Translations under genes and position numbers: made by a program
The notes under the pieces: generated by a model
Seen by the model: only the letters and a program-made list of their open reading frames with translations
The model's database searches: none
What the model was told of the DNA's origin: nothing
In this document: piece after piece, positions 41,434 through 54,275 of the stretch
Layout: each line of letters starts with the position of its first letter
How positions within the stretch are numbered: the first letter of the stretch is position 1
IMG/VR virus record: IMGVR_UViG_3300044655_003531
Coordinates: 1 to 64,000 of that record
Length of the DNA stretch: 64,000 nt
Direction: 5' to 3' (one strand)
DNA from: a virus
Taxonomy: Duplodnaviria > Heunggongvirae > Uroviricota > Caudoviricetes

Positions 41434-42168
41434 TTAAAATTTTTCGGACGATAATTTCATGCTCATTAGGTCATCTAAAATAGGACCCATAAGGTAATAC
41501 TCTGCTGAAGGTTGGCCCTTATCACAAACTCCAGGCTGGGAATACCAGTGGACGTTATAGTGATAATGATTGTGAACTTTGCTGCTCATTCTTTTAGACC
41601 CTTCAACCTCGTTTGTCCAGGGATCTTCTCCATCAACAATGTTTTGGATTAAGTACTCTCTATTCCAGATAGTTGCATTATGAGAGTGGAGATAATTTTC
41701 TCCTTGACTGTGCTTCATGATCCTAACCTTGTTAATGACGTAAGGGGTAGGATCTAGGCGGTAGGCATCGTAATAGTGTAATTTGGTGTGAATCTTGATG
41801 GATTCCGCCTTTTGGACTTCTGCGAACAGCAAAAGTTGTTCTAAAACGGGATAGGGAAAAGAAGATTTTAGCCACATATCTTCCTGGAGATAAATGATCC
41901 ATTTTGAGGTAATTTCGGATAAGGTTTTTTTCATTCTGGTGGAAAATCCATTTTTATCCGTCTTTCCGGTCAAAATGCTTTGCATCGCGGAGTTAGGCTT
42001 GAAGAGGTGACCCCTGCACGAAAGTTCAAAATCCTTGACATTCCGTTCTTCGGATGCCCAATAAACAGGGATTTTTTCAAAATCCCAGTACAGGTCTAAG
42101 GAATACAACATACCAAACCAAAACTGATGGTACGAATCACACGTGTGAACAACCAAAGAAAGATCCAT
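41434..42168 (-). CDS. hypothetical protein of glycan cluster (244 aa)
   Basis: ORF at the edge of the sugar-modification cluster. Confidence 0.45.
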   Translation of the reverse strand: MDLSLVVHTCDSYHQFWFGMLYSLDLYWDFEKIPVYWASEERNVKDFELSCRGHLFKPNSAMQSILTGKTDKNGFSTRMKKTLSEITSKWIIYLQEDMWLKSSFPYPVLEQLLLFAEVQKAESIKIHTKLHYYDAYRLDPTPYVINKVRIMKHSQGENYLHSHNATIWNREYLIQNIVDGEDPWTNEVEGSKRMSSKVHNHYHYNVHWYSQPGVCDKGQPSAEYYLMGPILDDLMSMKLSSEKF

Positions 42169-42169
42169 G

Positions 42170-43171
42170 TTATAAAGTGTTAAAATAATTAGATTGCTGG
42201 AGATGTTTCAAATAATCTAAAATTTTCAGAAATTCTTCCGGTCTTTTCTCGCCGTGGAGAACCTTGATGTCCCTTTTAGAAGGAGGAATTCTATAAAAAT
42301 TAAGAGAATAGTCCTTATTTTCCTCCGACATCCAGGTGGAAAATCCTGGATGTCCCTCTTCATAAAAATGACAAACCGTGTTGATCCCATCTCTTAAATT
42401 TATATAGCATAGTGGAAATCCTTCGTTGGTTTTTTTCCACGATAAAACGTTGTAGATTGTCTCTTCGTGAAAAGCGGCAACCCTAGATAAACTAATTTTC
42501 AATTTGGGAAGCAGAAAACAGAATTCCCTCCATGTTTTAACAAAATTCAAACAAGATGAATTACAGAGTATAACGTTGGTTGTTCTGTAGGTTCCCCTAG
42601 ATTCCGCAGGCATTTCTAAAAATTGCATTAAAGGCCATTCTAGGGTTTTGGTTAAATCGGCCTTTGGCCAGCACCCTTCAAATGGATTTCCTCTTTCAAA
42701 CCCATTTGGCTCGACTATGATCATATATTGATGAATGCCCTCCGTGCAAACTGGGTAGTCTTTTACGATGGGCATCCAATCGAACATTTCGTCGATTATA
42801 GGAGAAGCTATACAATCCGAATCTAAGTAGCAGAGCTCTTCGAAACCTTCTTCTAAAGCCAGCTGCATAGCCATAGTCTTAGCACATAAAATTTTATAAA
42901 TTTTTGGATTTTCTCTGGTAACGTAAAAATTACCATTAGCTTGATGAGTAAAATTATCTAGGTAGTCTTCATCCAGTTCTAGATCTAAATTTCTAAAGAT
43001 AACTTTTTCCAGTCCTTTAAAGAAAAGGGACGCATCAGGAGAGCAATTTACACCGCAAACAATAATAGGAAATTTAGAGAAGAGTTCTATACTTGTAGCT
43101 AAATTTTTGGCTATGTCTAGATAATTTTCAGTGGCATGTGTAATAAAAGCTCTTTTCATACAAATTCCCAT
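42170..43171 (-). CDS. putative GT-A-type glycosyltransferase (DxD)
   Basis: CYLDSDCIA DxD-like motif. Context only. Confidence 0.35.
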   Translation of the reverse strand: MGICMKRAFITHATENYLDIAKNLATSIELFSKFPIIVCGVNCSPDASLFFKGLEKVIFRNLDLELDEDYLDNFTHQANGNFYVTRENPKIYKILCAKTMAMQLALEEGFEELCYLDSDCIASPIIDEMFDWMPIVKDYPVCTEGIHQYMIIVEPNGFERGNPFEGCWPKADLTKTLEWPLMQFLEMPAESRGTYRTTNVILCNSSCLNFVKTWREFCFLLPKLKISLSRVAAFHEETIYNVLSWKKTNEGFPLCYINLRDGINTVCHFYEEGHPGFSTWMSEENKDYSLNFYRIPPSKRDIKVLHGEKRPEEFLKILDYLKHLQQSNYFNTL

Positions 43172-44082
43172 CCTCCTCCTGGAAACTTTTCGGCTTGATC
43201 CAAAACGTCAAAAATTTTACCATTTCTCCAAAACTCGAATTTTTGTAAACTAGGATCAATCTCAAATTGTTGGAACTCTGATATTGTCATCTTTTGGATA
43301 TCGTTATCCTTTCTTATAAAGATTTCCAAGGGTTGTTTCACATCGTAAACCAAACAGTGTTGGGGATCTGCGGTGCCAACATTTTTGGAGAAATAAATTT
43401 TGAATTCCTGCCAGGGAGAATAATTGTAAAAATCTTCGTGCCAATTACGAAAAGTGTAAATATGATCTTCGATAATAAAATCCCTGTTAATTGAAACATT
43501 AATTTTTTGGGCAAGATCTGCCCAAAAGTGTTCCGCACAATCAAACTCCAAACATCTTTCCCAAATAAATTCAGATTCTAGATTTTCTAATTTTGATTGT
43601 GAGACGGAAAAAAATTGGGAAGCACAATCATTAATTAATTTTTTTCCATTTTCGGTTGTTCTAAAAGCAAAAAAAGATTCTTGGTTTTTGTATTTGATGA
43701 AATTTAAAATTTGATTATCGATGACCAAATCATATAGCATAAAATAATTCATGTCATAATTTAGAATCCTTGCAAGTTGAACTAATTTCAGAACCTGAGA
43801 AAACCCAGCAAAACGGTTATTTCTCCAAAATCTGTAAAATTTAATTTTTTTCGCTCCAAAAAATTCTTCTTTCCAAAAAAGGTTAGAAGAATCCTCTTTT
43901 AATGGGTTATTTGGGTTGAAAAAATAAAAATCAACTAAGTTTAGAATGTCTCTTTCCAGATGAATAGACGAATAAAGCAAAATAGATGTGTCTATTTGCC
44001 TTAAAAGTTCCAAATTAATTTTTAGAACTTTTCTTTTTTCTTCTGAATCACAATGAGAACTAATTAAAACTAATTTTTTCAT
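43156..44082 (-). CDS. hypothetical protein, member of three-paralog family in glycan cluster (308 aa)
   Basis: N-terminal KKLVLISSHCDSEEKRKVLKINLELLRQIDTSILLYSS pattern shared with 47091..48212 and 53295..54275. Confidence 0.45.
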   Translation of the reverse strand: MKKLVLISSHCDSEEKRKVLKINLELLRQIDTSILLYSSIHLERDILNLVDFYFFNPNNPLKEDSSNLFWKEEFFGAKKIKFYRFWRNNRFAGFSQVLKLVQLARILNYDMNYFMLYDLVIDNQILNFIKYKNQESFFAFRTTENGKKLINDCASQFFSVSQSKLENLESEFIWERCLEFDCAEHFWADLAQKINVSINRDFIIEDHIYTFRNWHEDFYNYSPWQEFKIYFSKNVGTADPQHCLVYDVKQPLEIFIRKDNDIQKMTISEFQQFEIDPSLQKFEFWRNGKIFDVLDQAEKFPGGGWEFV

Positions 44083-44089
44083 AATTCTT

Positions 44090-44731
44090 TTAAAAATTAA
44101 TTTTTTTTAAATATCCATTTGGATTAAAAGTGACATTGTAACCATAAAAATCACACCATTTTCTATCTATTTCGAATTGTGGATTTTGTGGTAAAAATTC
44201 TTCTATCGCTCTAAGAGGACCTCCGTCATAGTTTTTTTCGATGCCCATCCAATTCACAGTTCCGTCTTCAACGATCATATAGGAATCTTCGCTGATTAAA
44301 TCTTTGAATTTATTCATCACAGACAAAACATCGTTATAGTTGTGTGACCCATCTTCAATCAACATAATTTTTTTAAATGAGGATGCATAATCCAAGTTGT
44401 ATTCTTGATAACCTCCCAAGAATCTCTGAATTCTTGGATGTCGATTAATCAAACCCCTCTTTTCTTCGGAATTTGATAAAAAAGTTTCATCCTGAATATC
44501 CACAGTATGAACCATACCTTTACCTATATTATTTAAAATATCACCCAAATACAGACACGATCCTCCATAATTAGTCCCTATTTCTATTATCAAATCGGGT
44601 CTTATTTCATTAATTATCATTTGATACATTACGTAATCAAATGGGGATTTTTCAGTTATAATTCCTCTATATAAAGTTTTTAGATGTCCATCCATGATAC
44701 CATCTAAATTTAAGTTGTATGAATTGTTCAT
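44090..44731 (-). CDS. class I SAM-dependent methyltransferase (CmcI/TylF-like O-methyltransferase)
   Basis: IIEIGTNYGGSCLYLG motif I. Size and pattern typical of CmcI-family sugar O-MTases. Confidence 0.55.
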   Translation of the reverse strand: MNNSYNLNLDGIMDGHLKTLYRGIITEKSPFDYVMYQMIINEIRPDLIIEIGTNYGGSCLYLGDILNNIGKGMVHTVDIQDETFLSNSEEKRGLINRHPRIQRFLGGYQEYNLDYASSFKKIMLIEDGSHNYNDVLSVMNKFKDLISEDSYMIVEDGTVNWMGIEKNYDGGPLRAIEEFLPQNPQFEIDRKWCDFYGYNVTFNPNGYLKKINF

Positions 44732-44741
44732 TTTTTTTATT

Positions 44742-45146
44742 TTAAAGATCCACTCTCATAGTATTGCACTCCCTGAAAAATCCACATCTTTCATAGAAAT
44801 TAATTCTCTCATCGAAACAGGATAGAATAACCTTATAACATCCAAGATCCCTGGCTTTTTCCAAAGCTTTTTGAACCAATAAAAAACCAATTTTATTACC
44901 TCTAAATTTTTCTTTCACCGCCACATCTTCAATGAATCCTGCTAACCCGCCATTTCGGATTAATTTTCTTTGGAGATGGAGTGTAATTGTTCCTATGATT
45001 TCTTGTTCTTCAACCGCAACAAAATTGTAATTATTTGTCATCCATTCAGATAAAACGTTTTCTTGTATTTCTGTGATGTACCAGGTCTCCTTCAAGATTT
45101 CCAGTAATCCAGCTTCATCTCCCTTCTGAAATTCGCGAATGGTCAT
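44742..45146 (-). CDS. GNAT N-acetyltransferase
   Basis: IGTITLHLQ...GFIEDVAVKEKFRGNKIGFLLV (Q/R-x-x-G-x-G/A motif A). Confidence 0.65.
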   Translation of the reverse strand: MTIREFQKGDEAGLLEILKETWYITEIQENVLSEWMTNNYNFVAVEEQEIIGTITLHLQRKLIRNGGLAGFIEDVAVKEKFRGNKIGFLLVQKALEKARDLGCYKVILSCFDERINFYERCGFFRECNTMRVDL

Positions 45147-45151
45147 AAATG

Positions 45152-46312
45152 TTATTTTTGTGATTCGATAACGTTTTGAATCACAAATTCAATATCATCA
45201 TCGGTTAAAAATAAATGTAAAGGTAAACTAATAATTTTCTCGCTCAGGTTCAATGAATTCGGATTCAACCCAAATTGTGATTTGTACATATCATAATGGG
45301 TATTATCACGATAATGAACTCCTGGATATATCCCACGAATATTTAAAAATTCCATAGTTTTGTTTCTTTCTTCCACAACAATTTGATACAAATGCCTAGA
45401 AGAAAGTTCTGTGTACGGAGAAACTTTAACTGACTGGATGCCTGCAGATTGAAATGACTTTTCATACATTTGGCAGATTTCTCTTCTTCTGGTGTTATCC
45501 TCTTCAAGATATTTCAAACCAACTAAAGCCATCGAAGCCATCATAGAATTACCATGATATTTGAAACCAACATCAACGAGATCATATTCCCATTTATAAC
45601 TTCCTTTGTCGTGTGATCTTTGGTAAGTGTCTTTAGAAATTCCAAGCCAAGATAATTTTCTGGCTAATACGTCATAATCTTCATTCTTGAAACAGATCAT
45701 TCCCGAATCTGCGGTCGGAAGATTTTTGACCGCCTGAAAACTAAAAATAGAAACATCAGCATCTAAACCAACATGATCTTTCGAGTAACCAACACCAACC
45801 TCTGTTTTGTTTTTTATCCAGGTTCCAGCCATATGTGCGGCATCTAAAATAATTTTAAGGCCTTTGCGTTGGCAAAAATTTACTATTTCATCGAACCTCC
45901 CGGCATTACCCCCAATTCCCACAAATAAAACAGCTTTGGTTTTTTTGGTGATTTTTGATTCTACTGATTTTGGATCCAGACATAGAAATTCATCTACGTC
46001 TGCAAAGATTGGTCTCAGTCTTTCGTACATTATTGCGTGATTTGAAGACACAAAAGTTAAGGGGGACGTGATAATCTCGTCTCCTTCTTTCCATTTATTG
46101 GCGTCTTTTAAAATTTTTAAGGCAAGATGCAAACCAGAGGTGTTCGAATTTAGAAAATGCGCATGCTTAAATCCGGTGTATTTTTTCCATTCTTCTTCAA
46201 TCTGCTGAGTTTTAAAACCTAAACCTGTCCATCCTATTTCCATACACTCTTGCATATGTTCCCAGATTTCTGATGTTCTGAACTTAGGTTTGAATAATTG
46301 AATATTTTTCAT
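45152..46312 (-). CDS. DegT/DnrJ/EryC1/StrS-family PLP-dependent sugar aminotransferase
   Basis: DVSIFSFQAVKNLPTADSGMI (S-F-x-x-x-K PLP lysine motif). About 386 aa, typical size. Confidence 0.7.
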   Translation of the reverse strand: MKNIQLFKPKFRTSEIWEHMQECMEIGWTGLGFKTQQIEEEWKKYTGFKHAHFLNSNTSGLHLALKILKDANKWKEGDEIITSPLTFVSSNHAIMYERLRPIFADVDEFLCLDPKSVESKITKKTKAVLFVGIGGNAGRFDEIVNFCQRKGLKIILDAAHMAGTWIKNKTEVGVGYSKDHVGLDADVSIFSFQAVKNLPTADSGMICFKNEDYDVLARKLSWLGISKDTYQRSHDKGSYKWEYDLVDVGFKYHGNSMMASMALVGLKYLEEDNTRRREICQMYEKSFQSAGIQSVKVSPYTELSSRHLYQIVVEERNKTMEFLNIRGIYPGVHYRDNTHYDMYKSQFGLNPNSLNLSEKIISLPLHLFLTDDDIEFVIQNVIESQK

Positions 46313-46323: not shown

Positions 46324-47094
46324 TTAAAAATTATGAAATTTTTGATTGAAAATCGATTTAATTTCATCTAAATCTTTTTCTGTTATTTCAGTTTGAGCTT
46401 TAGATGACATTGAATCTTCTTTTTTTTCATAAACAAATGATGGATAATCAAGATATCCTATTCTACCGCGAAGAGATAATTCAAAATTGGTAGCCCAATC
46501 TATGAAATGCTTATTTTTAACATAACTTAAATCAATGTCAGTGAAATTTCTAAAAAATCTTGATGATGAGTAGCACAAGTTACTATGATGTAAAAGTTTT
46601 TTGTCAATTTCTCCGTCACTAATTGGATGTAAAACGGAGTTATACTCTGTCATAGCAGCAATCCAAAAGCTCCCATCCGCCGAGGGAACCAATTTTCTTC
46701 CTTCACTAATCAAATATCCAGTGCTAACGAGAGAAAAATCAGGATTATTTTCTAAAAAATCAAATTGTTTTTTTAGTTTATATGGATCTATCCAATAATC
46801 ATCTGGGTCTATATAAGCAACATAAGAAGTTGAACAATTTTTGAGAAGAAAAATAACGGTTTCTATAAATCCTTTGTTTTCTTTATTGGAAAATATCGAA
46901 ATTTTAAAATTTTCGTTTTCAAAATTTTTTAATCTGTGTAAAATAGCCAGACTTTGATCTGTAGAACAGTCATCGCAGGCTATAAAATGAATATTGCAGT
47001 CGATTTTTTGCACGTAAACGGAAAAAAAAGCACGATCTAAAAAATAAGCATAATTGTAGACCGGCATTATAACACTTATTTCTTTTCTTTTCAT
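46324..47094 (-). CDS. family 2 glycosyltransferase
   Basis: ISVIMPVYNYAYFLDRAFFSV...ACDDCSTDQS (DxD). Confidence 0.65.
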   Translation of the reverse strand: MKRKEISVIMPVYNYAYFLDRAFFSVYVQKIDCNIHFIACDDCSTDQSLAILHRLKNFENENFKISIFSNKENKGFIETVIFLLKNCSTSYVAYIDPDDYWIDPYKLKKQFDFLENNPDFSLVSTGYLISEGRKLVPSADGSFWIAAMTEYNSVLHPISDGEIDKKLLHHSNLCYSSSRFFRNFTDIDLSYVKNKHFIDWATNFELSLRGRIGYLDYPSFVYEKKEDSMSSKAQTEITEKDLDEIKSIFNQKFHNF

Positions 47095-48213: not shown

Positions 48214-49143
48214 CTAAGACAAGATCTTTTTATTCTGCCAAGCCCAGATCATATTTCCAGTGTGGTGTGTTTGAAATCCATTTTCTGAAAAGATAAGCAA
48301 TAATTGATCCGGAGGATGAATATGATATTCCAAAACTATCTTTGGTATAGACTTTAAAAATTCAGAGCTCATGTTTGGAAAAATTTCCCATTCACCTCCC
48401 TCGCAGTCTATTTTTAAAAAATCTATTTTTACCTCATTTTCTTTTGCCCATTCTTCCAGGACAACTCCTTGACAAAAAACACTTTCATCGGTGTGATCGA
48501 ACGAAACAGAAACTGAATTCAAAACACTTGACTCATGAATATTTAGTTTCAAATCCTTTTTTTCCGACCACACAGCTAAATTGTGGACATGAATTGGCAA
48601 ATCACCGAAGTTTGTTTGAATAAAACTTGATAGCTTGGGGTCTGGTTCAAACGAGTGAACTTGTGCAGCTCCTTTTGTAATCGAAAAAAAGGAAAAGAAA
48701 CCGATGTTTGCCCCAATATCAACAACAACATCTCCAGGTTCCACTTTACAATGTTCGTGGTTGTATTCCCCACTTAAAAAAATCTCCCAAAGTACAAGCC
48801 CTGTTACTAAGTCTTTTTTTGAAAGATTACTTCCTATATTTTTCAACCTGTTCTTTGGGTCCAAATTTCTTATATCATGCCTAAAAGTATCTGAGTAATC
48901 ACAAACTTCGAGTAGGATTTCTCCAGTTTGCAAATCCTCTACTACAAAAGTGATAAATTTTGTGATTCTACCGCTATATGCTACCCAGTATGAACATTTG
49001 GGAAAAACATTAATTATGTCACCCCAATAACACAATCTTGTGTGAGAATCTATAAACTTAATTACAATTTCCCTTTCCTCGTCAAAATGACTGGTAAAGT
49101 CTATCCCGTTTCTATCCGGTAAAATGTGATTTAGAGAGATCAT
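48214..49143 (-). CDS. FkbM-family methyltransferase
   Basis: VVVDIGANIGFFSFFS...VHSFEPDPK is the FkbM signature. Confidence 0.6.
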   Translation of the reverse strand: MISLNHILPDRNGIDFTSHFDEEREIVIKFIDSHTRLCYWGDIINVFPKCSYWVAYSGRITKFITFVVEDLQTGEILLEVCDYSDTFRHDIRNLDPKNRLKNIGSNLSKKDLVTGLVLWEIFLSGEYNHEHCKVEPGDVVVDIGANIGFFSFFSITKGAAQVHSFEPDPKLSSFIQTNFGDLPIHVHNLAVWSEKKDLKLNIHESSVLNSVSVSFDHTDESVFCQGVVLEEWAKENEVKIDFLKIDCEGGEWEIFPNMSSEFLKSIPKIVLEYHIHPPDQLLLIFSENGFQTHHTGNMIWAWQNKKILS

Positions 49144-49150: not shown

Positions 49151-49927
49151 TTATTTATTATTTTGTCTTAGAACTTCTTTCTCCTTATTGAAACAATGCA
49201 AAGAAGTGATGTGCATGGTAAAAAATCCAGGTTTAACCTCGCCCCAGGATTCGGGATTTCTTTCCCTCAATTTTTCTAGAACCCAAAAAACTTTCCGACA
49301 AGCCATATAGATATCGTCTCTAAAGTGGCGGAGATAGTCACAGGACCTGATGTAATACACGATGTGTAGATAATCCGCTCTTCTCATAAAATGATAGCCG
49401 ATTGTACAAGGAACTCGTTCCCCGTGGACAGATCCAGTGTCTTCCGGGAACCACAGGGGCAGAAAAGCCTGTCTAGTGAAAGGTTCTCTTGCCAACAAAT
49501 CAATCACATCACCAAAGTCACCGTAGTTGTACCTAATGCCAAACATGGTCGAATTGGGTTCTTCTGATGCAAATTTAGGCCAGAGTCTTTCTGGATAAGT
49601 GTGAGAAAATTTCTCCTCTGTTTTGAATTGGGAATTCTTCTTTTGGTTGAAAGGCCACCATTCGTTAGAAGGAGGTGGATTCAGCGGCTGGCCCCCGATT
49701 CTTTCTTCAAAATGATCGTCCGCCCAGGGAAGATTAGGTCTGACCTCATCACGTAGTTCTTCGAGTGTGTGGGGGACAAACATAGAGAAAGAAGTATTTA
49801 AGGTTTCCCACATGTCGTCAGGGGAAGGTATACCCTGCCATCTCTCGGTCTGTACGACATATCCGTGATCGATCAATTTTTCCTTAGCCCACTTGATGGC
49901 TTGTGAGGGCTTTTGAAATGTTTTCAA
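49151..49927 (-). CDS. hypothetical protein (258 aa)
   Basis: ORF. C-terminal RVPCTIGYHF...YIRSCDY faintly recalls the ThyA-fold active-site region but the N-terminus does not. Not called. Confidence 0.45.
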   Translation of the reverse strand: MKTFQKPSQAIKWAKEKLIDHGYVVQTERWQGIPSPDDMWETLNTSFSMFVPHTLEELRDEVRPNLPWADDHFEERIGGQPLNPPPSNEWWPFNQKKNSQFKTEEKFSHTYPERLWPKFASEEPNSTMFGIRYNYGDFGDVIDLLAREPFTRQAFLPLWFPEDTGSVHGERVPCTIGYHFMRRADYLHIVYYIRSCDYLRHFRDDIYMACRKVFWVLEKLRERNPESWGEVKPGFFTMHITSLHCFNKEKEVLRQNNK

Positions 49928-49987: not shown

Positions 49988-50620
49988 TCAATCTAAAATC
50001 CAGGAAGATATTTTTTCAGGGGAAATTAAATTCAAATCTCTGGTTCTATTTTGCTGGAAAATTTTATACTCAAAATATGGGTTATCGAAAGGAACGAGCT
50101 CTTGGCTTTCCCTTTTGATCAGTCCAACACCTTCGTCGGTATTAACAGTACAAATATTCAGATCTGGCCTGGTTGCCTTTAACTTATAGATAGTTTTCCA
50201 AACTGTTCCATTCCATGCTACTCCAAGATAATCTTCGATGACCCGAATGTAATTTACTTCATACATAAAAGGATCACAATCATGAAGAACTATAACTCCC
50301 TCTTCTGTCAAGTGATTCAAAGAATTTAAGATGTCTTTTTCTACCTGGTAAGAAAGGTGTAATCCGTCGATAAAAATAAGATCCCACTCATAATCAGGAG
50401 GTAAATCCAACAGATTATTTTCTAGCCTGGAAAAAAATTCATCAGAGGTAAACGGATACTTGACCGGATTTTCAGGATTTTCTAGACCTGGATCGACCCC
50501 AGATTTCTCTTCGCATTGAATTAAATCGTAACAATCCTCAGGCCATCTTACTCCTATCTCCAAGTAGGTGCTAAATTTTTTGGTACTGATAATCTGATTG
50601 ATCACTTCTGATCTATGCAT
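49988..50620 (-). CDS. class I SAM-dependent methyltransferase
   Basis: YLEIGVRWPE (motif I-like), VIVLHDCDP. Confidence 0.45.
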   Translation of the reverse strand: MHRSEVINQIISTKKFSTYLEIGVRWPEDCYDLIQCEEKSGVDPGLENPENPVKYPFTSDEFFSRLENNLLDLPPDYEWDLIFIDGLHLSYQVEKDILNSLNHLTEEGVIVLHDCDPFMYEVNYIRVIEDYLGVAWNGTVWKTIYKLKATRPDLNICTVNTDEGVGLIKRESQELVPFDNPYFEYKIFQQNRTRDLNLISPEKISSWILD

Positions 50621-50646
50621 AAGTTCAAATTTGTAAATTAATCACA

Positions 50647-50675
50647 AAAAACCCAGCCGAAGCTGGGTTGAAGAG
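50647..50675 (-). terminator. rho-independent terminator
   Basis: Perfect 7-bp hairpin ACCCAGC-CGAA-GCTGGGT followed on the minus strand by TTTTTTGTG. Lies just downstream of the lipoprotein gene. Confidence 0.6.
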
Positions 50676-50683
50676 AAGAAATC

Positions 50684-50845
50684 TTATTGAGCTGAAACTG
50701 TATCAACAGGGGCGGTAGCTTCTGTTGTAGTGTCAACTGGAGTGGTTTCTTCAACTACTGCCGGTTCATCAGTTGTAGTTTCTACTACAGGACCGCAGGA
50801 GCTTAGGATGGAAATGAGAGCGAGCGTAAGCAGGGATTTTGTCAT
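50684..50845 (-). CDS. small lipoprotein (53 aa), Thr/Val/Glu-rich
   Basis: Unlisted ORF MTKSLLTLALISILSSCGPVVETTTDEP... with signal peptide and lipobox L-S-S-C. Followed by the terminator. Confidence 0.5.
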   Translation of the reverse strand: MTKSLLTLALISILSSCGPVVETTTDEPAVVEETTPVDTTTEATAPVDTVSAQ

Positions 50846-50910: not shown

Positions 50911-51498
50911 TTAATTTGCTATTTGAAATTTTTTAGGATCTGTAAAGGCCGGCTTACGATTTGGAAAATAATAAGTTATTTTTTCTTTCTTGTCGATGGT
51001 TAGGATTTTCCAAAAACCAGTTGGAACTGTTGCTCCCGTACTTAATTTTTCAGGAGACCCTGAAAAATCTAGTTTAATGAGAACGTCGACCTGATGAAAT
51101 TCTGCTACCAATTGTCTCTCTTTGGCCTCTAAAATTCTCCAAACCCCCCGATTTAAATCTTGGTGTTGGAGAGCACAGTTGAGGTAGGAGAAAGTTCTTA
51201 CTAGTGACTCCTTAGAACAACTGAAAGTAGCCGCCGGGGCTAGGTGCCCTTTGTCCCAGATATTCTTTTCGTAATCCGCATGATCAGAGGTAATGATGGA
51301 ATCAACCCGGTAAAAATCCAATCCTTGTCTGCTCTCCTTTGCCGCAGTACATCTGACCGAGTATGATAATTCTAGAGGTTGCTGATATATTTCAGAGTAA
51401 ACGAGAGAGTATTCCCCCGCATTAACCGCTACAGATGCTCTTTGTGAATATGTACAAAAAGGAAAAAAAAGGACAAAAAGTAAAATTCTTGATAGCAT
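50911..51498 (-). CDS. secreted non-specific DNA/RNA endonuclease (Serratia NucA/Endonuclease_NS family)
   Basis: Signal peptide MLSRILLFVLFFPFCTYS. Active-site block DKGHLAPAATF...N (DRGH-type motif). Confidence 0.65.
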   Translation of the reverse strand: MLSRILLFVLFFPFCTYSQRASVAVNAGEYSLVYSEIYQQPLELSYSVRCTAAKESRQGLDFYRVDSIITSDHADYEKNIWDKGHLAPAATFSCSKESLVRTFSYLNCALQHQDLNRGVWRILEAKERQLVAEFHQVDVLIKLDFSGSPEKLSTGATVPTGFWKILTIDKKEKITYYFPNRKPAFTDPKKFQIAN

Positions 51499-51541
51499 TG
51501 GATATTTTTTCCTTTATATATCCAATCTGGGTGTCGTGAAC

Positions 51542-51790
51542 CTATCTAGAGGCTAAAGATTCGTACTCTTGCTCCAAGAAAGACATCTCAATCTCGGCGG
51601 ATCTCTGATCCAAGCCCATTTCAGCCATAATTAAATTTACCCCAAAATCAGTCCATTCTTTTTTAACCGAGCCTTTTAAGGGATGGTTCAGCACCCAGAG
51701 GTGATCTTTCTTAATTTGCTCATCGTGTAATCCAGTGTAAAGCTGATGCCTTTTTTTGAGAGAATTAATAATGTGATTTTTCGTCTCCAT
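51542..51790 (-). CDS. hypothetical protein (82 aa)
   Basis: ORF. Confidence 0.4.
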   Translation of the reverse strand: METKNHIINSLKKRHQLYTGLHDEQIKKDHLWVLNHPLKGSVKKEWTDFGVNLIMAEMGLDQRSAEIEMSFLEQEYESLASR

Positions 51791-51795
51791 TGATT

Positions 51796-52581
51796 CTATT
51801 GTTTATTCTGATTTTTCTGAAATTCTTCTTTTCTCCTGGTAAAAATCAGGGACTTTTGATCAAGCCATTCTTTTTCACTTGTTTCATCCACTTTTTCTAT
51901 TTCTTTAGGATGAGTTAAAGAATTCGAATGTTTCCTATAAATGTAGCTAGGGTAATGATCGTAGTTAATCTTACCCCTTAAGCTTAATTCATAATTCATG
52001 GGCCAATCTGAATACGGAAATTCGAAAAAGTAAGGCTGAAAAAGATCCTCATAATTTCTAAAAAAACGGGAGGATGCATATACACAGTTCCTGCCGGTAG
52101 AAATAAATTCAGGGGAGGTGAAATTTTTATCCATAAATTCTTCGGGAACTCCAAAAAATAAATCTCCTTCTGGATGTGGACAAAATCCATACTCTCCTTC
52201 TAAAGTTAAATAACCGGTAGAAGACGCGGAAAATTCTGGATTACTCTCAAGAAAATCAAATTGTTTCTGTAATTTATAAGGATCTATCCAATAGTCATCA
52301 CCATCAAGATAGGCTATATAATTTCCTTTAGCTTTAGAAAGTAATCTTTTAACTGTTTCTACTTCTCCCTTATTTTCTGTGTTGATAAAAAAGTCGAATT
52401 TGTCCTGCCCGTAAAATTTTTTGAACCGTGTTAAAATACCAGCGCTCTGATCTTGAGAAGAATCATCCCCCACTAATACTTGCACGTCGAAATTGGTGAT
52501 CTGCGAAAAAACGGAAAAAAGAGTCGTATCAAGAAATTCAGAGAAGTTGTAATTTGGAATTATGACGGTAACGGAGCTCAT
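51796..52581 (-). CDS. family 2 glycosyltransferase (paralog of 46324..47094)
   Basis: VTVIIPNYNFSEFLDTTLFSV...GDDSSQDQS. LDGDDYWIDPYKLQKQFDFLESNPEF is nearly identical to the other GT2. Confidence 0.65.
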   Translation of the reverse strand: MSSVTVIIPNYNFSEFLDTTLFSVFSQITNFDVQVLVGDDSSQDQSAGILTRFKKFYGQDKFDFFINTENKGEVETVKRLLSKAKGNYIAYLDGDDYWIDPYKLQKQFDFLESNPEFSASSTGYLTLEGEYGFCPHPEGDLFFGVPEEFMDKNFTSPEFISTGRNCVYASSRFFRNYEDLFQPYFFEFPYSDWPMNYELSLRGKINYDHYPSYIYRKHSNSLTHPKEIEKVDETSEKEWLDQKSLIFTRRKEEFQKNQNKQ

Positions 52582-52598
52582 TTTTCTCTACTCAATTT

Positions 52599-52985
52599 CT
52601 ATTTTTGTGAATCACCTTTCCAAACACGATAAGAATCCTCGTCAAAGTGTTGGGTGGAAACCTCGAAGATTATCCCATCCGTTATTGCTTCCAGTTGATG
52701 TGGTTGGCCGGGCATTTGTCTGACCGAATCACCTTCTATTAAATTTTTTTCAACCACTTCTGCGTTGCGGGTGTCTATATACCGATAAATAAAAGTGCCT
52801 TCCTTTACGTACCAAGTTTCATCTTTGATCAAATGATAGTGCATTGAAAATTTGGCTCCTCCCTTAAAACATAGAAGTTTTCCACAATACAGTTCGTTAT
52901 TTTCGAAGACAACCTCATGACCCCATCCTTTAGGGATGTTGCACTCATCGCAGGAGGGTACATGATATATAATAGGTGGTTCCAA
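52599..52985 (-). CDS. cupin-fold sugar isomerase/epimerase-like protein (WxcM/FdtA-like)
   Basis: Small cupin with HYH and glycan-cluster context. Confidence 0.4.
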   Translation of the reverse strand: MEPPIIYHVPSCDECNIPKGWGHEVVFENNELYCGKLLCFKGGAKFSMHYHLIKDETWYVKEGTFIYRYIDTRNAEVVEKNLIEGDSVRQMPGQPHQLEAITDGIIFEVSTQHFDEDSYRVWKGDSQK

Positions 52986-53073
52986 GAGATTTGTCAGTCA
53001 AATTAAATATGGACCTTTTATGAAAAAGAAAGAAATGATTTCGAATTATTTCTTAAATTTGTAAAAAAAAACA

Positions 53074-53280
53074 ATGGAAGTTAACAAGTGGACCAATCGG
53101 ATCAAGAATTTAATTCTAGATCTGGAGCTGAACCAAGACCCTGAGAAAAAGAGTGAAATTCTCGGTCGGTTAAAAGCTCATGTAGAAGATCTAAATAAAG
53201 AGCTGGAAAAATTAGAAGAGCATCACACTTTGGTGGTTTCGCAGCTAAAACAGGAGATCTCCAGATTGAATGGCCTGTAA
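53074..53280 (+). CDS. possible small coiled-coil protein (68 aa)
   Basis: Only plus-strand ORF in a gap between minus-strand genes. Heptad-rich. Confidence 0.25.
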   Translation: MEVNKWTNRIKNLILDLELNQDPEKKSEILGRLKAHVEDLNKELEKLEEHHTLVVSQLKQEISRLNGL

Positions 53281-53294
53281 GAAGAGATATTAAA

Positions 53295-54275
53295 TTAATA
53301 GATAGAACCATATCCGCCGTTTAAATCTGCAAACTCATACAGTTCTAAAAATCCTTTGGCACTGTAAAACTTTTCGTTCTCTTCGGTCAATTCGAATCTT
53401 TTTTCTAAGGAATATTTGCCATCCACGATTCGAACTTCCATTTTTTCAGAGGCTGGGCAGTACCAATAACCCCCAAGTGTAAGAACAATTTGATTCTCTC
53501 CGACGTAATATATTATTTCTCTTGAGGTGTTGTTCATTAAAAAAAGATAGTAGCCAGTTTGAGATGGGAGGACTTCACACACTATCCCAATAGCGGAAAT
53601 TCTATTCATCTCGCTAGTTCTAAATCCTTCCATAGCACCATCTTCGTAACATTCCTTAATCAAAAAATCAGATTCATTTACACCCAAATGCTCATAAAAA
53701 TCTCTTTCGAGAATACCAGTGATATTAAAGGCATGATAGGCATCATAATTTGTGGGTAATTTGATTTTCTGCACAAAATATTCAGCATTTCCTCCAAACA
53801 AGAGAGTGTGATAATTGTAACCCTCGTTAAATTGGTATCTATGAAAGATCATTTTTTTTTCGGCATGAATCATTTCTTGCAGAAAATTATCAAAAGTAGA
53901 AAGATCTTTTTCAGAAATTAAATTGTCACATTCCAAAAAATAGAAATACTCATAGCCCATTCGGTGGGCGGCAGAAATACTAGTGTCCATATTTTTACAG
54001 ATAGCAAGCATGTGACCTATGTTCCACAGAGTTGCCTTAATAAAAGAATTAGCAAACCAACTGAATGAATGGGATCCTAAGAGTGGATTTTCTGAATCAT
54101 AAATAAAATAGTCTATTTCCTTCTGCACATCAAGGGGCAGAGGTAAATGTGAAACAACCATCAGTTTGTAGTCAAGCCCCTTGAGTCTGACAATACATTC
54201 TTTCAGAATTTGTAAATGGTAGTCACTAGAAGGAAAACAATTTATAATGAAAATTTTTTTAAATGGATAATTCAT
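53295..54275 (-). CDS. hypothetical protein, member of three-paralog family (326 aa)
   Basis: N-terminal KKIFIINCFPSSDYHLQILKECIVRLKG...MVVSH pattern shared with 43156.. and 47091... Confidence 0.45.
   Translation of the reverse strand: MNYPFKKIFIINCFPSSDYHLQILKECIVRLKGLDYKLMVVSHLPLPLDVQKEIDYFIYDSENPLLGSHSFSWFANSFIKATLWNIGHMLAICKNMDTSISAAHRMGYEYFYFLECDNLISEKDLSTFDNFLQEMIHAEKKMIFHRYQFNEGYNYHTLLFGGNAEYFVQKIKLPTNYDAYHAFNITGILERDFYEHLGVNESDFLIKECYEDGAMEGFRTSEMNRISAIGIVCEVLPSQTGYYLFLMNNTSREIIYYVGENQIVLTLGGYWYCPASEKMEVRIVDGKYSLEKRFELTEENEKFYSAKGFLELYEFADLNGGYGSIY

What the first reader, a model, noticed from the sequence alone, without database searches (positions are those of the whole stretch)
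41434..54275. About 12 kb glycan-modification cluster with duplicated GT2, a three-member unknown paralog family and a flanking secreted nuclease
A contiguous minus-strand block encodes:
- a DegT-type sugar aminotransferase;
- two GT2 glycosyltransferases sharing a near-identical DGDDYWIDPYKLQKQFDFLESNPEF segment;
- a DxD glycosyltransferase-like protein, a GNAT, a cupin, and FkbM and CmcI-type methyltransferases;
- three large paralogs of unknown function (43156.., 47091.., 53295..) that share only an N-terminal ~40-aa pattern.

A signal-peptide Serratia-type non-specific nuclease (50911..51498) and a tiny lipoprotein with its own terminator are embedded in the cluster.

In a phage this could synthesise a modified amino/methyl-sugar for virion glycosylation or for host surface conversion (superinfection exclusion). 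The unknown paralog family may be novel glycosyltransferases or polymerases.
Basis: partly seen in the sequence, partly recalled or inferred. Interest (0 to 1): 0.55.

Follow-up and report, generated by a model that had tools for sequence, protein, structure and literature searches.

The report
Variable sugar-building island in a jumbo phage
This is a real, phage-borne and highly variable gene island that makes an unusual methylated amino-sugar chain using six or seven soluble sugar-transfer enzymes, three of them from a previously undescribed family. What the chain is attached to (virus particle, viral DNA or host surface) is still unknown.

Summary
Window 41434-54275 encodes a DegT aminotransferase, a GNAT, a cupin, three methyltransferases (CmcI, FkbM, MT24), two GT2 paralogs (42% identical), a DxD protein, a secreted Endonuclease_NS and a lipoprotein with a strong terminator.

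The three "unknown paralogs" are true homologs. A profile built without them scores them at E 3e-18 and 3e-19. An AlphaFold model (pLDDT 88.7) shows a GT-A glycosyltransferase domain plus a C-terminal beta-sandwich. The family has about 1,370 clusters, has no Pfam model, and is often fused to GT1, GT2, GT9, FkbM or MT24 domains. The DxD protein is a GT8/GT24-like retaining GT-A.

The block is phage-borne, in an uncultured jumbo phage whose host is probably in Bacteroidota. It is not one unit: accessory sugar genes are interleaved with conserved core genes. In relatives this gap runs from 0.01 to 11.6 kb and holds different tailoring genes.

The acceptor is unresolved. My estimates are virion protein about 0.4, cytosine-modified DNA about 0.25 and host envelope about 0.25. 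This is a new variant of the known "LPS-like" clusters of large phages.

The parts
41434..42168 (-). A: 244-aa protein of unknown fold. It always follows B in every island found, and it has an invariant QEDMW motif.
   Evidence: No Pfam, PHROG, NCBIfam or PDB sequence hit. Orthologs are 63-66% identical in L001, L005, L014 and L016. hhalign against three GT-A families is not significant (E 0.06-0.35), although YLQEDMW lines up with their DxD strand.
42170..43171 (-). B: GT8/GT24-like retaining GT-A glycosyltransferase with an invariant D117-S-D119 motif.
   Evidence: AlphaFold model with pLDDT 87.4. Foldseek against the PDB finds the UGGT catalytic domain, LARGE1, LgtC and glycogenin at E 4e-9 to 5e-8. 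It has 166 homologs, some fused to GT2 or Methyltransf_24, and the DSD motif is invariant in 31 sequences. No Pfam hit.
43156..44082 (-). C: paralog 1 of the new GT-A family.
   Evidence: Family HMM built without it scores E 3.5e-19 over profile positions 1-124. Ortholog 83% identical in L005.
44090..44731 (-). D: CmcI / rhamnosyl O-methyltransferase-type sugar O-methyltransferase.
   Evidence: PF04989 at 2.9e-32. NCBIfam RhmsylMtase at 3.4e-26, below the equivalog cut-off. Present in all islands at 67-98% identity.
44742..45146 (-). E: GNAT N-acetyltransferase.
   Evidence: PF00583 at 4.7e-20. Ortholog 84% identical in L016.
45152..46312 (-). F: DegT-family NDP-4-keto-sugar aminotransferase.
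   Evidence: PF01041 at 8.4e-73. Best NCBIfam models are ArnB (5e-58), PseC (6e-57) and dTDP-4-amino-4,6-dideoxygalactose transaminase (4e-37), all below equivalog cut-offs.
46324..47094 (-). G: GT2 glycosyltransferase, a paralog of O.
   Evidence: PF00535 at 7.7e-20. 42% identical to O. Absent from the otherwise most similar island, L016.
47091..48212 (-). H: paralog 2 of the new GT-A family.
   Evidence: Family HMM built without it scores E 3.5e-18 over profile positions 2-224. Orthologs are 48-87% identical in all large islands. In L005 it is fused behind a GT92 domain in a 641-aa protein.
48214..49143 (-). I: FkbM-family methyltransferase with an unknown 120-aa N-terminal part.
   Evidence: PF05050 at 5.9e-13 and TIGR01444 at 6.5e-24.
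49151..49927 (-). J: divergent thymidylate-synthase-fold enzyme. It is a core gene of the phage clade and forms one edge of the insertion hotspot.
   Evidence: phrog_160 at 9e-26. Pfam PF00303 scores only 18.8 bits, below the 24.3 cut-off. More than 4,875 homologs, on contigs up to 373 kb. hhalign to E. coli ThyA maps C174 to C146, D197 to D169, D205 to N177 and R171 to L143. The signature is universal in 75 loci. A canonical thyA also lies in the window.
49988..50620 (-). K: class I SAM methyltransferase (Methyltransf_24), accessory.
   Evidence: PF13578 at 8.4e-8. Found only in the window and L016, at 82%. The same domain is fused to B-family and Q-family glycosyltransferases elsewhere.
50650..50845 (-). 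L: 53-aa lipoprotein (LSSC lipobox, Thr/Glu-rich) and its intrinsic terminator at 50669-50650.
   Evidence: A 51-52-aa ORF sits at the same position in relatives, with a faint LPAM_1 hit.
50911..51498 (-). M: exported Serratia-type non-specific nuclease. It is a clade gene, not a glycan gene.
   Evidence: PF01223 at 7e-22. Homologs lie next to J in L019/20, L027/28 and L029. All have signal peptides, and 9 of the 11 (window copy plus 10 relatives) have Gln right after the predicted cleavage site.
51542..51790 (-). N: 82-aa conserved protein of unknown function.
   Evidence: 40-54% identical orthologs in L001, L005, L014, L016 and L027/28.
51796..52581 (-). O: GT2 glycosyltransferase.
   Evidence: PF00535 at 4.3e-19. 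Positional orthologs about 50% identical in L001 and L016.
52599..52985 (-). P: 128-aa metal-binding cupin, possibly a sugar isomerase or epimerase.
   Evidence: Cupin_2 at 7.5e-7, with weak hits to mannose-6-P and lyxose isomerases. The sequence shows a G-x5-H-x-H-x3-D/E-x6-G motif. It is 72-85% conserved, including in L027/28.
53074..53280 (+). S: 68-aa coiled-coil-like ORF on the opposite strand, conserved.
   Evidence: 47-53% identical at the same place and orientation in L001, L005, L014 and L016.
53295..54275 (-). Q: paralog 3 of the new family. It has a GT-A domain (residues 1 to about 225) and a beta-sandwich (231-326), and D117 in an ECD motif is invariant.
   Evidence: AlphaFold model with pLDDT 88.7 and pTM 0.84. 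Foldseek PDB hits: WrtF, alpha-3GalT, TarP, ColGalT1 at E 1e-5. Best BFVD hit is a 924-aa uncultured-phage GT at E 2.7e-16. About 1,371 representative clusters. D117 is the only invariant column in 39 sequences. No Pfam hit for any of the 39 members.

Best explanation
The region is a phage-borne, hypervariable accessory island in an uncultured jumbo phage whose host is probably in Bacteroidota. It encodes a self-contained, soluble, cytoplasmic glycan assembly line.

Inferred chemistry:
1. A host-supplied NDP-4-keto-6-deoxyhexose is aminated at C4 by DegT (F).
2. The amino group is N-acetylated by the GNAT (E). The cupin (P) may also reshape the sugar.
3. This sugar and host NDP-sugars are then added by six or seven GT-A enzymes. 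These are two inverting GT2 enzymes (G, O), one retaining GT8-like enzyme (B), three members of an undescribed GT-A plus beta-sandwich family (C, H, Q), and perhaps A.
4. Three O-methyltransferases (D, I, K) decorate or cap the chain.

The enzyme identities and folds are shown. The substrates, the order of steps and the acceptor are inferred.

I consider the most likely acceptor to be a phage-made protein of the virion. This would match the mycobacteriophage O-methyltransferase plus GT cassettes and the clade-specific fibril-glycan clusters of Megavirinae. The between-relative shuffling of tailoring genes would then diversify an exposed glycan coat.
For: Enzyme set.

GT-A folds, from confident models.

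Paralogy.

All enzymes are soluble, with no 19-residue hydrophobic window. No flippase, polymerase, ABC transporter or initiating transferase is present.

Domain fusions link the new family and the B family to GT1, GT2, GT9, FkbM and MT24 domains in proteins of 500-2,100 aa. These sit in other phage-like glycan islands. This architecture is typical of glycan-chain builders.

The island is phage-borne and variable:
- The gap between J and the next core gene runs from 0.01 to 11.6 kb across about 25 related loci.
- In relatives it holds NTP-transferase, dehydratases, C-methyltransferases, a PglD-like acetyltransferase, a carbamoyltransferase, PhyH, an ATP-grasp enzyme, GT34 and GT92.
- GC content dips to 0.31-0.33, against 0.38-0.40 in the flanks.

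Precedents:
- Cluster O mycobacteriophages have three GT genes downstream of an O-methyltransferase gene, and these enzymes modify capsid and tail tube (PMC11600133, citing Freeman 2023).
- Mimivirus has a nine-gene cluster with aminotransferase, N-acetyltransferase, methyltransferase and GTs. Megavirinae clusters of 6-33 genes are clade-specific (PMC10117803).
Against: - No structural gene lies next to the island. Its neighbours are nucleotide-metabolism, RNA-repair, chaperone and anti-defence genes, which look like an early or middle region. Mycobacteriophage cassettes, by contrast, sit in the late structural operon (my own recollection).
- No acceptor protein is identified.
- The island abuts a thymidylate-synthase-like enzyme with the cytosine-type Asp, which fits a DNA acceptor.
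- GT2 and GT8 relatives in bacteria mostly act on lipid-linked glycans.
- No 4,6-dehydratase or nucleotidyltransferase is in the window, so the sugar pathway depends on an assumed host supply.
Confidence: 0.4

Rival explanations
1. DNA hypermodification. J converts dCMP to a C5-hydroxymethyl (or other reactive) derivative that is incorporated into phage DNA. The island's glycosyltransferases then build a sugar chain on it, which protects the genome from host nucleases and from the phage's own non-specific nuclease.
For: - J is a second thymidylate-synthase-fold enzyme, alongside a canonical thyA in the same window.
- J keeps the catalytic Cys and has Asp at the E. coli N177 position. It has a polar Arg, with an adjacent Glu, at the L143 position. 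According to PMC13326640, N177D marks dCMP use, and a non-hydrophobic residue at position 143 marks non-methyl products.
- In every island-bearing genome the sugar genes abut J.
- A nuclease is adjacent to J in several lineages.
- The genomic neighbourhood looks early.
- Known phage DNA glycosyltransferases include TarP-like GT-A and GT8-like enzymes (bioRxiv 10.1101/2023.12.21.572611). TarP is among Q's best PDB hits.
- Clusters combining a thymidylate synthase homolog, NDP-sugar synthesis and GTs are established in RB69 and DLP3 (PMC13326640).
Against: - J is a core gene in most relatives. It also occurs in small siphophages, where it has no adjacent GTs and sits in a nucleotide module of dTMP kinase, dUTPase, J and a deaminase.
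- No dCTPase or dNMP kinase was found among the 64 further window ORFs scanned against Pfam; the 28 ORFs scanned showed none either.
- Six or seven GTs, three O-methyltransferases, and (in relatives) C-methyl, carbamoyl and ATP-grasp tailoring exceed any DNA glycan described so far. Those are mono- to trisaccharides of hexose, HexNAc, heptose or arabinose.
- All the GTs are acidic, with net charge -3.5 to -19. This is unusual for enzymes that bind duplex DNA, but the argument is weak.
- J lacks the D169N signature of 5-hydroxy-dCMP synthases.
Confidence: 0.25
2. Host envelope remodelling. During infection the soluble GTs and methyltransferases act at the inner face of the membrane on host lipid-linked O-antigen, capsule or LPS-core intermediates. 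This changes the cell surface and blocks adsorption by competing phages. It is the usual hypothesis for cyanophage and pelagimyophage 'LPS' clusters.
For: - The best named relatives of the GT2 and GT8-like enzymes (TuaG, EpsE, WcaA, PglI; LgtC, WbbM) act on lipid-linked glycans and lack transmembrane segments.
- The literature describes polymorphic sugar-synthesis plus GT clusters in large phages and proposes superinfection avoidance (PMC7824862, PMC7029224).
- The neighbourhood looks early or middle.
- Bacteroidota surfaces are glycan-rich (my own knowledge).
Against: - The island has no initiating transferase, flippase, polymerase, ligase or ABC exporter, and no membrane protein.
- The altered glycan would have to be accepted by host export machinery.
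- A surface change takes time in a non-growing, lytically infected cell.
- The new family and the B family were found almost only on phage-like contigs, not in bacterial polysaccharide loci. One hit was found among the representative genomes of 185,579 species, on a phage-like 257-kb contig. None was found in 50,697 phage records except a 735-kb megaphage. The genome scan used a single peptide pattern, so its sensitivity is limited.
Confidence: 0.25
3. Small-molecule product. The island glycosylates and methylates a diffusible metabolite, such as a glycoside antibiotic-like compound or a signalling or storage molecule, rather than a macromolecule.
For: The tailoring enzymes in the window and in relatives are classic natural-product sugar-tailoring families: TylF-like and CmcI-type O-methyltransferases, NDP-hexose C-methyltransferases, a carbamoyltransferase, PhyH and an ATP-grasp enzyme. 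Iyer et al. raise a secondary-metabolite reading for a second cyanophage cluster (PMC7824862).
Against: No aglycone-forming genes (PKS, NRPS, terpene or similar) are in the window or the related islands. Six or seven GTs point to an oligosaccharide or polysaccharide rather than a decorated aglycone.
Confidence: 0.07

Closest known systems
Megavirinae (Mimivirus) fibril-glycan gene clusters (PMC10117803)
   Same: They are virus-encoded and combine a DegT-type aminotransferase, an N-acetyltransferase, a sugar O-methyltransferase and several GTs. They make rare bacterial-like 4-amino-4,6-dideoxy sugars. Cluster content differs between related viruses (6-33 genes). Multi-domain GTs occur.
   Different: Those are eukaryotic giant viruses. 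Their clusters include their own 4,6-dehydratase, and the acceptor (capsid fibrils) is demonstrated. Here the virus is a tailed phage, no dehydratase is in the window, the acceptor is unknown, and the GT families differ.
Mycobacteriophage virion glycosylation cassettes (Freeman et al. 2023, as cited in PMC11600133 and PMC12619734)
   Same: Tandem GT genes plus an O-methyltransferase, encoded by a tailed phage, acting in the cytoplasm on phage proteins.
   Different: Those cassettes have 1-4 genes, sit in small siphophages of Actinobacteria, and are located with the structural genes (my recollection). Here 13-14 glycan genes lie in a non-structural region of a jumbo phage, with amino-sugar synthesis as well.
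'LPS/capsule' gene clusters of cyanomyophages, pelagimyophages and other jumbo phages (P-SSM2 15-gene cluster; PMC7824862, PMC7029224, PMC3037559)
   Same: They are polymorphic clusters of sugar-synthesis enzymes, cupin isomerases, O-methyltransferases and several paralogous GTs in large lytic phages. Their function has not been tested experimentally.
   Different: The phage lineage and probable host phylum differ. Those clusters usually carry epimerase/dehydratases and nucleotidyltransferases, which the window lacks. The GT-A plus beta-sandwich family and the B and A families are not described there.
Phage DNA glycosylation pathways (T4 gp42 with alpha/beta-GT; RB69 and DLP3 5-hydroxycytosine arabinosylation, PMC13326640; 5mYOX-linked GT clusters, bioRxiv 10.1101/2023.12.21.572611)
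   Same: A thymidylate synthase homolog with Asp at the N177 position lies next to GT genes and NDP-sugar genes. GT-A (TarP-like) and GT8-like folds are used. GT content varies between relatives.
   Different: J belongs to a different thymidylate synthase subfamily, with R at position 143 and D169 retained. No dNMP kinase or dCTPase is nearby. There are far more GTs and methyltransferases than in any known DNA-glycan pathway. J occurs widely without GTs.
Moraphages (PMC12619734)
   Same: They are uncultured aquatic jumbo phages of 200-307 kb with predicted Bacteroidota hosts, glutamine synthetase and chaperone genes, homing endonucleases, and four core orthologous groups of putative GTs.
   Different: Whether the window belongs to this lineage could not be tested, because no sequences were at hand. 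That paper does not describe the island, the hotspot or the GT families.
GT-A glycosyltransferases TarP, WrtF and alpha-1,3-galactosyltransferase (for C/H/Q), and GT8/GT24 enzymes LgtC, glycogenin, UGGT and LARGE1 (for B)
   Same: The predicted fold matches, and an acidic motif follows strand beta-4 (ECD in Q, DSD in B).
   Different: Sequence identity is 7-16%. There is no Pfam or NCBIfam match. Q carries an extra C-terminal beta-sandwich. Activity, donor and acceptor are unknown.

Membership tests
GT-A fold glycosyltransferases (for paralogs C, H, Q) | Rossmann-like alpha/beta/alpha nucleotide-sugar-binding domain that is structurally similar to solved GT-A enzymes | tested here: met
   The Q model has pLDDT 88.7. 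192 PDB chains match at E<=1e-3, and the listed top 50 are nearly all GT-A glycosyltransferases (a few are the related GT-A-like cytidylyltransferases). TM-score normalised to the target is 0.4-0.58. H and C were tied to Q by profile only and were not modelled.
GT-A fold glycosyltransferases (for paralogs C, H, Q) | DxD-type acidic motif immediately after strand beta-4 | tested here: met
   Strand 110-115 is followed by E115-C116-D117. D117 is the only invariant column in 39 diverse members. The motif is ExD, not the canonical DxD.
GT-A fold glycosyltransferases (for paralogs C, H, Q) | Membership of a described sequence family (Pfam, NCBIfam or PHROG) | tested here: not met
   No hit for the three window proteins. 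No relevant Pfam hit for any of 39 members at E<=0.1.
GT-A fold glycosyltransferases (for paralogs C, H, Q) | Transfer of a sugar from an NDP-sugar to an acceptor | not testable with these tools
   This needs an enzyme assay.
GT2 (Pfam PF00535) for G and O | Profile match above the curated cut-off, and a DxD motif | tested here: met
   Scores of 71.9 and 69.5 bits against a cut-off of 23.3. The sequences show DPDD and DGDD.
GT8/GT24-type retaining GT-A (for B) | Fold similarity to LgtC, glycogenin, UGGT and LARGE1, and a DxD motif | tested here: met
   Foldseek E 4e-9 to 5e-8 with TMt 0.5-0.58. D117-S-D119 is invariant in 31 sequences.
GT8/GT24-type retaining GT-A (for B) | Sequence-profile membership (Pfam Glyco_transf_8 or Glyco_transf_24) | tested here: not met
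   No Pfam or NCBIfam hit at E<=0.01. No PDB sequence hit with a 3-sequence profile.
Phage DNA-glycosylation gene cluster (thymidylate synthase homolog plus GTs) | Thymidylate synthase homolog with the catalytic Cys and Asp at the E. coli N177 position (dCMP specificity) | tested here: met
   hhalign maps C174 to C146 and D205 to N177. The signature RSCD-x2-RH-x2-DD is almost universal in 75 loci.
Phage DNA-glycosylation gene cluster (thymidylate synthase homolog plus GTs) | Acidic residue at L143 (hydroxymethylase or hydroxylase type), or D169N (5-hydroxy-dCMP synthase) | tested here: not met
   R171 aligns to L143, with E170 adjacent. D197 aligns to D169 and is retained. The criteria are taken from PMC13326640.
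Phage DNA-glycosylation gene cluster (thymidylate synthase homolog plus GTs) | Conserved linkage of the thymidylate synthase homolog with GT genes across relatives | tested here: inconclusive
   The two are adjacent in all island-bearing genomes (window, L001-5, L014-16, L027/28). J has no adjacent GT in most relatives (L006-10, L017-26, L029-38) or in small phages.
Phage DNA-glycosylation gene cluster (thymidylate synthase homolog plus GTs) | Accompanying dNMP kinase and dCTPase | tested here: not met
   None among the 64 other window ORFs scanned with Pfam. The rest of the genome is not available.
Phage DNA-glycosylation gene cluster (thymidylate synthase homolog plus GTs) | Modified, glycosylated base in virion DNA | not testable with these tools
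   This needs nucleoside LC-MS.
Bacterial O-antigen/capsule locus or phage seroconversion module | Initiating polyprenyl-phosphate transferase, Wzx/Wzy or ABC exporter, or GtrA/GtrB-type membrane proteins | tested here: not met
   No such Pfam family was found, and no protein between 41434 and 54275 has a TM-like window except the lipoprotein signal peptide.
Bacterial O-antigen/capsule locus or phage seroconversion module | Synteny with a bacterial chromosomal polysaccharide locus | tested here: not met
   The flanks and all syntenic relatives are phage-like. The genome scan returned one locus, on a phage-like 257-kb contig. Only one peptide pattern was scanned.
Virion glycosylation cassette (mycobacteriophage or giant-virus type) | Tandem GTs with a sugar O-methyltransferase, and virus-encoded amino-sugar tailoring | tested here: met
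Virion glycosylation cassette (mycobacteriophage or giant-virus type) | Genomic association with structural genes, or a demonstrated glycosylated virion protein | tested here: not met
   The window's neighbours are non-structural. Glycosylation itself cannot be tested here.
Serratia-type DNA/RNA non-specific endonuclease (for M) | PF01223 match above the cut-off, a D-[RK]-G-H active-site motif, and an export signal | tested here: met
   78.6 bits against a cut-off of 23. The sequence shows DKGH. A signal peptide is conserved in the 10 distinct homologs found in relatives.

The most novel reading that the evidence does not exclude
The island hypermodifies the phage's own DNA. A new thymidylate-synthase subfamily (Arg at position 143, Asp at position 177) would supply a reactive cytosine. 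A set of GT-A enzymes, including the undescribed GT-A plus beta-sandwich family, would then build O-methylated oligosaccharides containing N-acetyl-amino-deoxyhexose on it. This would be by far the most complex DNA glycan known, and it would be diversified between related jumbo phages by cassette exchange at a fixed hotspot.
Probability: 0.2. Interest if true: 0.85.

Novelty: new variant of a known kind. Interest (0 to 1): 0.45.

Why it matters
Large phages of many lineages carry "LPS-like" sugar clusters, and the purpose of none has been shown. This island offers a well-defined test case for three reasons:
- It has a fixed insertion hotspot whose content is exchanged between close relatives.
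- It has a compact, fully soluble enzyme set.
- It has three uncharacterised glycosyltransferase families. One has about 1,370 sequence clusters and no database model, and is found almost only in phage-like contigs.

Expressing the island, and analysing virions or DNA of any cultured relative, would decide between virion coat, DNA armour and host-surface disguise. It would also assign function to a large family of "hypothetical" phage proteins.

The adjacent thymidylate-synthase-like subfamily, with its cytosine-type active site, is widespread in phages and also lacks a known product.

Tried and rejected
- Megablast of 41000-55000 against 50,697 phage records found no match.
- tblastn of B against phage records found no match. 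Q matched only a 735-kb uncultured megaphage. GT2 O gave only generic distant GT2 hits.
- PDB sequence searches with shallow profiles of A and B found nothing usable. Profile-profile comparison of A and B with the paralog family was not significant.
With A2 it returned one locus, L011, whose genes (KaiC-like ATPase, DUF5662, M48 peptidase, many unknowns) look phage-like rather than like a polysaccharide locus.
- The afdb50 fold library was unavailable.
- Global hhalign of J against ThyA failed. The local mode worked.
- The idea that J is simply the phage's thymidylate synthase was rejected, because a canonical split thyA lies at 2142-4268.
- The idea that J is a 5-hydroxy-dCMP synthase was rejected for lack of D169N.
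- The idea that the nuclease and lipoprotein belong to the glycan pathway was rejected, because both occur in relatives without sugar genes.
- Polymerase function for the paralogs was rejected on fold.
- The Freeman 2023 paper is not in the library, so it is cited only through papers that cite it.
- ARAGORN found no tRNA or tmRNA, although Rfam found a tmRNA.
- Counts of promoter-like and terminator-like sites do not exceed shuffles. Only the one strong terminator is used as evidence.

Full report
**1. What is there**

Window 41434-54275 holds 17 tightly packed minus-strand ORFs and one conserved plus-strand ORF.
- DegT aminotransferase: PF01041, 8e-73. Nearest NCBIfam models are ArnB, PseC and dTDP-4-amino-4,6-dideoxygalactose transaminase, all below equivalog cut-offs.
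- GNAT (5e-20).
- CmcI/rhamnosyl-O-methyltransferase family (3e-32).
- FkbM methyltransferase.
- A Cupin_2 protein.
- Two GT2 glycosyltransferases.
- An Endonuclease_NS nuclease (7e-22).

The two GT2 proteins are 42% identical along their whole length (E 9e-64), and the quoted 25-residue segment is 21/25 identical. The 53-aa ORF has an LSSC lipobox. It is followed, 15 nt after its stop, by an 8-bp GC-rich hairpin with a T-run at 50669-50650.

- a thymidylate-synthase-like gene J (49151-49927; phrog_160 at 9e-26, Pfam only 18.8 bits);
- a third methyltransferase K (49988-50620; Methyltransf_24);
- an 82-aa gene N;
- the plus-strand ORF S (53074-53280).

**2. The paralog family**

Pairwise BLAST among 43156-44082 (C), 47091-48212 (H) and 53295-54275 (Q) is weak (E 2e-5 to 1e-3).

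A profile search with Q, its close homologs, H and C against 1.84 billion representatives found 1,371 proteins at E<=1e-3 and 733 at E<=1e-10.

An HMM of 37 family members built without H and C scores C at 3.5e-19 (profile positions 1-124) and H at 3.5e-18 (positions 2-224). It scores no other of 150 window ORFs. The three are therefore true paralogs over much more than 40 residues.

An AlphaFold model of Q from a 15-sequence alignment is confident (pLDDT 88.7, pTM 0.84). Residues 1 to about 225 form a GT-A fold and residues 231-326 form a beta-sandwich.
- Foldseek against the PDB gives 192 hits at E<=1e-3, led by GT-A glycosyltransferases: WrtF, alpha-1,3-GalT, TarP, ColGalT1 and heparosan synthase.
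- The best viral model is a 924-aa GT of an uncultured phage (E 2.7e-16).
- The only invariant residue in 39 diverse members is D117, in an E-C-D motif right after strand beta-4, where GT-A enzymes carry DxD.
- No member matches any relevant Pfam model.

In long proteins (500-2,100 aa) the domain is fused to GT1, GT2, GT9, FkbM and Methyltransf_24 domains. Two such proteins sit in other phage-like islands with GT9, DegT and epimerase genes.

**3. Proteins B and A**

B (42170-43171) has 166 homologs, some fused to GT2 or Methyltransf_24, on contigs up to 481 kb. Its model (pLDDT 87.4) matches retaining GT8/GT24 enzymes at E 4e-9 to 5e-8: UGGT catalytic domain, LARGE1, LgtC, glycogenin and WbbM. 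D117-S-D119 is invariant.

A (41434-42168) always follows B in the islands but has no detectable relatives of known fold.

All enzymes in the block are acidic (pI 4.5-6.9) and none has a transmembrane-like segment.

**4. Whose genome, and is it one cluster?**

The window is phage-like throughout. It encodes T4-type RNA ligases 1 and 2, a gp47-like exonuclease, an endolysin, an SPFH protein, a ClpB-like ATPase, a glutamine-synthetase-like protein, a Tad3 anti-Thoeris homolog and a PNKP.
- It has no near DNA relative among 50,697 phage records.
- The best protein relative is a 309-kb Tunturiibacter phage at 40% identity.
- Homologs of J lie on metagenomic and IMG/VR contigs of 100-373 kb.

So this is an uncultured jumbo phage. 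It resembles the recently described aquatic "moraphages", which have Bacteroidota hosts, glutamine synthetase, chaperones and four core orthologous groups of glycosyltransferases (PMC12619734). I could not test membership of that lineage.

A Bacteroidota host is also suggested by the nuclease. Of the window copy and its 10 distinct homologs in relatives, 9 have signal peptides with Gln right after the predicted cleavage site. This is the Bacteroidetes Q-rule (PMC5837995).

Comparison of 85 loci shows that the "cluster" is a mosaic:
- In most relatives, J is followed within 0.01-0.9 kb by homologs of 41141-41422, 40945-41151 and 40508-40909.
- In the window, nine genes (A-I, 7.7 kb) fill that gap.
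- Islands of 5.9-11.6 kb occur only in the subclade whose J is at least 84% identical (L001-5, L014-16). A 2.5-kb mini-island (GT34-FkbM fusion plus a B homolog) occurs in L027/28.
- Content differs between islands. Relatives carry NTP-transferase-HAD, two epimerase/dehydratases and two C-methyltransferases (L001). They also carry GT92 fused to H (L005), and a PglD-like acetyltransferase, PhyH and another GT2 (L016). L014 carries a TylF-like O-methyltransferase, an ATP-grasp enzyme and a carbamoyltransferase.
- The shared set is H, Q, B, A, the CmcI methyltransferase D and the cupin P.
- L016 is nearly identical in D (98%) but only 64-65% identical in B and A, so the island itself is recombinant.
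- GC content falls to 0.31-0.33 inside the island, against 0.38-0.40 in the flanks.

J, N, the small lipoprotein and the nuclease M also occur in relatives without sugar genes. M is adjacent to J in several of them. On the other side of J, the accessory genes (K, O, Q) are again interleaved with conserved ones.

**5. The thymidylate-synthase-like gene**

The window also carries a canonical thyA. It is split into an N-terminal ORF (3951-4268) and a C-terminal ORF (2142-2942) around a homing-endonuclease ORF, and it retains the LGLPFNIASY motif. J is therefore a second thymidylate-synthase-fold enzyme.

Only its core aligns to solved thymidylate synthases and to the CMP hydroxymethylase MilA (profile E 3e-4 and 5e-3). 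A local profile alignment to E. coli ThyA gives this mapping:
- C174 to C146;
- R194-S195-C196-D197 to R166-D169;
- D205 to N177;
- R171 to L143.

The motifs xRxPC and RSCD-x2-RH-x2-DD are nearly universal in 75 loci, down to 38% identity.

According to PMC13326640:
- N177D marks dCMP substrates;
- an acidic residue at position 143 marks hydroxymethyl or hydroxyl products;
- D169N marks 5-hydroxy-dCMP synthases.

J meets the first criterion, not the third, and has Arg (with an adjacent Glu) at position 143. In small siphophages, J homologs (41-47% identical) sit between dTMP kinase, dUTPase, a deaminase and DNA polymerase I. The product of J is unknown, and a cytosine C5 modification is plausible.

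**6. How it most likely works**

Shown:
- the enzyme families and folds;
- their solubility;
- the variability and phage origin of the island.

Inferred:
- F and E resemble the WecE/WecD, PseC/PseH or Mimivirus L136/L142 pairs. They would turn an NDP-4-keto-6-deoxyhexose into an N-acetyl-4-amino-4,6-dideoxyhexose.
- The keto-sugar would come from the host, because the window has no dehydratase or nucleotidyltransferase, whereas relatives do.
- G, O, B, C, H, Q and possibly A would then assemble an oligosaccharide, and D, I and K would O-methylate it.

The acceptor is not determined.

I rank a virion protein first (about 0.4), for these reasons:
- The pathway is self-contained and soluble.
- Multi-domain GT-methyltransferase fusions and O-methyl capping are typical of glycan-chain builders.
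- Closest functional precedents are the mycobacteriophage O-methyltransferase plus GT cassettes that modify capsid and tail tube (PMC11600133, citing Freeman 2023), and the clade-specific Megavirinae fibril-glycan clusters (PMC10117803).
- Against it, the neighbourhood is non-structural.

DNA hypermodification comes next (about 0.25):
- It is favoured by the adjacency to J, the early-type neighbourhood, the nearby nuclease, and the fact that known DNA glycosyltransferases include TarP-like GT-A and GT8-like enzymes (bioRxiv 10.1101/2023.12.21.572611).
- Against it are the number of GTs and the richness of tailoring, the acidity of the enzymes, the lack of a nearby dNMP kinase or dCTPase, and the wide occurrence of J without GTs.

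Host envelope remodelling (about 0.25) is the standard hypothesis for such clusters (PMC7824862, PMC7029224):
- It fits the bacterial relatives of GT2 and GT8.
- However, no initiating, flipping, polymerising or exporting component is present, and the new families were found essentially only on phage-like contigs.

A small-molecule product is a minor possibility (about 0.07).

**7. Novelty and verdict**

Sugar-synthesis plus GT clusters that vary between related large phages are known, although their function has never been tested. This is a new variant in a different phage lineage. Its distinguishing features are:
- a defined insertion hotspot beside a thymidylate-synthase-like gene;
- unusually rich methylation and tailoring;
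- three GT families without database models, one of them large.

Interest is moderate (0.45). It would be high if the DNA-glycan reading proved true.

Noticed in passing
window 54797-55236 (-): A phage-encoded tmRNA gene (Rfam RF00023, 72 bits, E 4e-26, full-length model). It lies directly between the cluster's flanking gene R and the divergently transcribed ClpB-like ATPase. ARAGORN did not call it.
   Followed up: partly
window 2142-4268 (-): The canonical thymidylate synthase gene is split into an N-terminal ORF (3951-4268, ThyA residues 2-81) and a C-terminal ORF (2142-2942, residues 75-262). A homing-endonuclease-like ORF (2935-3906; DUF7487, phrog_3339) lies between them. This is reminiscent of the T4 td intron, but no group I intron reached Rfam's gathering score.
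   Followed up: partly
window 50911-51498 (-) and homologs in L006, L019, L025, L027-29, L031, L032, L035, L087: The exported non-specific nuclease and its relatives have signal peptides, and in 9 of 11 the residue right after the predicted cleavage site is Gln (patterns such as A|Q or S|Q). This matches the Bacteroidetes Q-rule (PMC5837995) and points to a Bacteroidota host. The nuclease is adjacent to the thymidylate-synthase-like gene in several lineages.
   Followed up: partly
window 49151-49927 (-) and 75 IMG/VR loci (L014-L088): J defines a widespread thymidylate-synthase-fold subfamily: more than 4,875 homologs, and also 138 GenBank phage records annotated 'thymidylate synthase'. It has a near-universal xRxPC ... 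RSCD-x2-RH-x2-DD signature, with Arg at the E. coli L143 position and Asp at the N177 position. Its product is unknown.
   Followed up: partly
window 232-801 (-): Homolog of the Thoeris inhibitor Tad3 (Pfam PF25185, E 2e-35).
   Followed up: no
window 39168-40220 (-) and 61365-62831 (-): A glutamine-synthetase-like protein (Gln-synt_N plus Gln-synt_C) flanks the conserved genes below the island. A RimK-type ATP-grasp ligase lies further up. Both are conserved next to the locus in relatives.
   Followed up: no
window 21391-21522 (-): A 132-nt match to the Rfam tRNA model (31.5 bits, E 0.013), about twice the length of a tRNA, so it may be an intron-containing tRNA or a chance match. ARAGORN found nothing.
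   Followed up: no
window 50684-50845 (-): After its lipobox, the 53-aa lipoprotein is almost entirely Thr, Glu, Val and Pro. It contains D-T-T and D-T-V triplets that fit the Bacteroidetes O-glycosylation sequon D-(S/T)-(A/I/L/V/M/T) (my own knowledge). No test was done.
   Followed up: no
L011 (CAZRCF010000001.1, 256,708 bp, binned as a Lentimicrobiaceae MAG): The only hit of the new GT family among the representative genomes of 185,579 species lies on a 257-kb contig. The local genes (KaiC-like ATPase, DUF5662, M48 peptidase, many unknowns) look like a jumbo phage that was binned with a bacterial MAG.
   Followed up: partly
LR756501.1 / LR756503.1 (735,411-bp uncultured phage), around 308762-309463: Three copies of the new GT-A family occur in the 735-kb megaphage record. 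This is the only GenBank phage record with a match.
   Followed up: no
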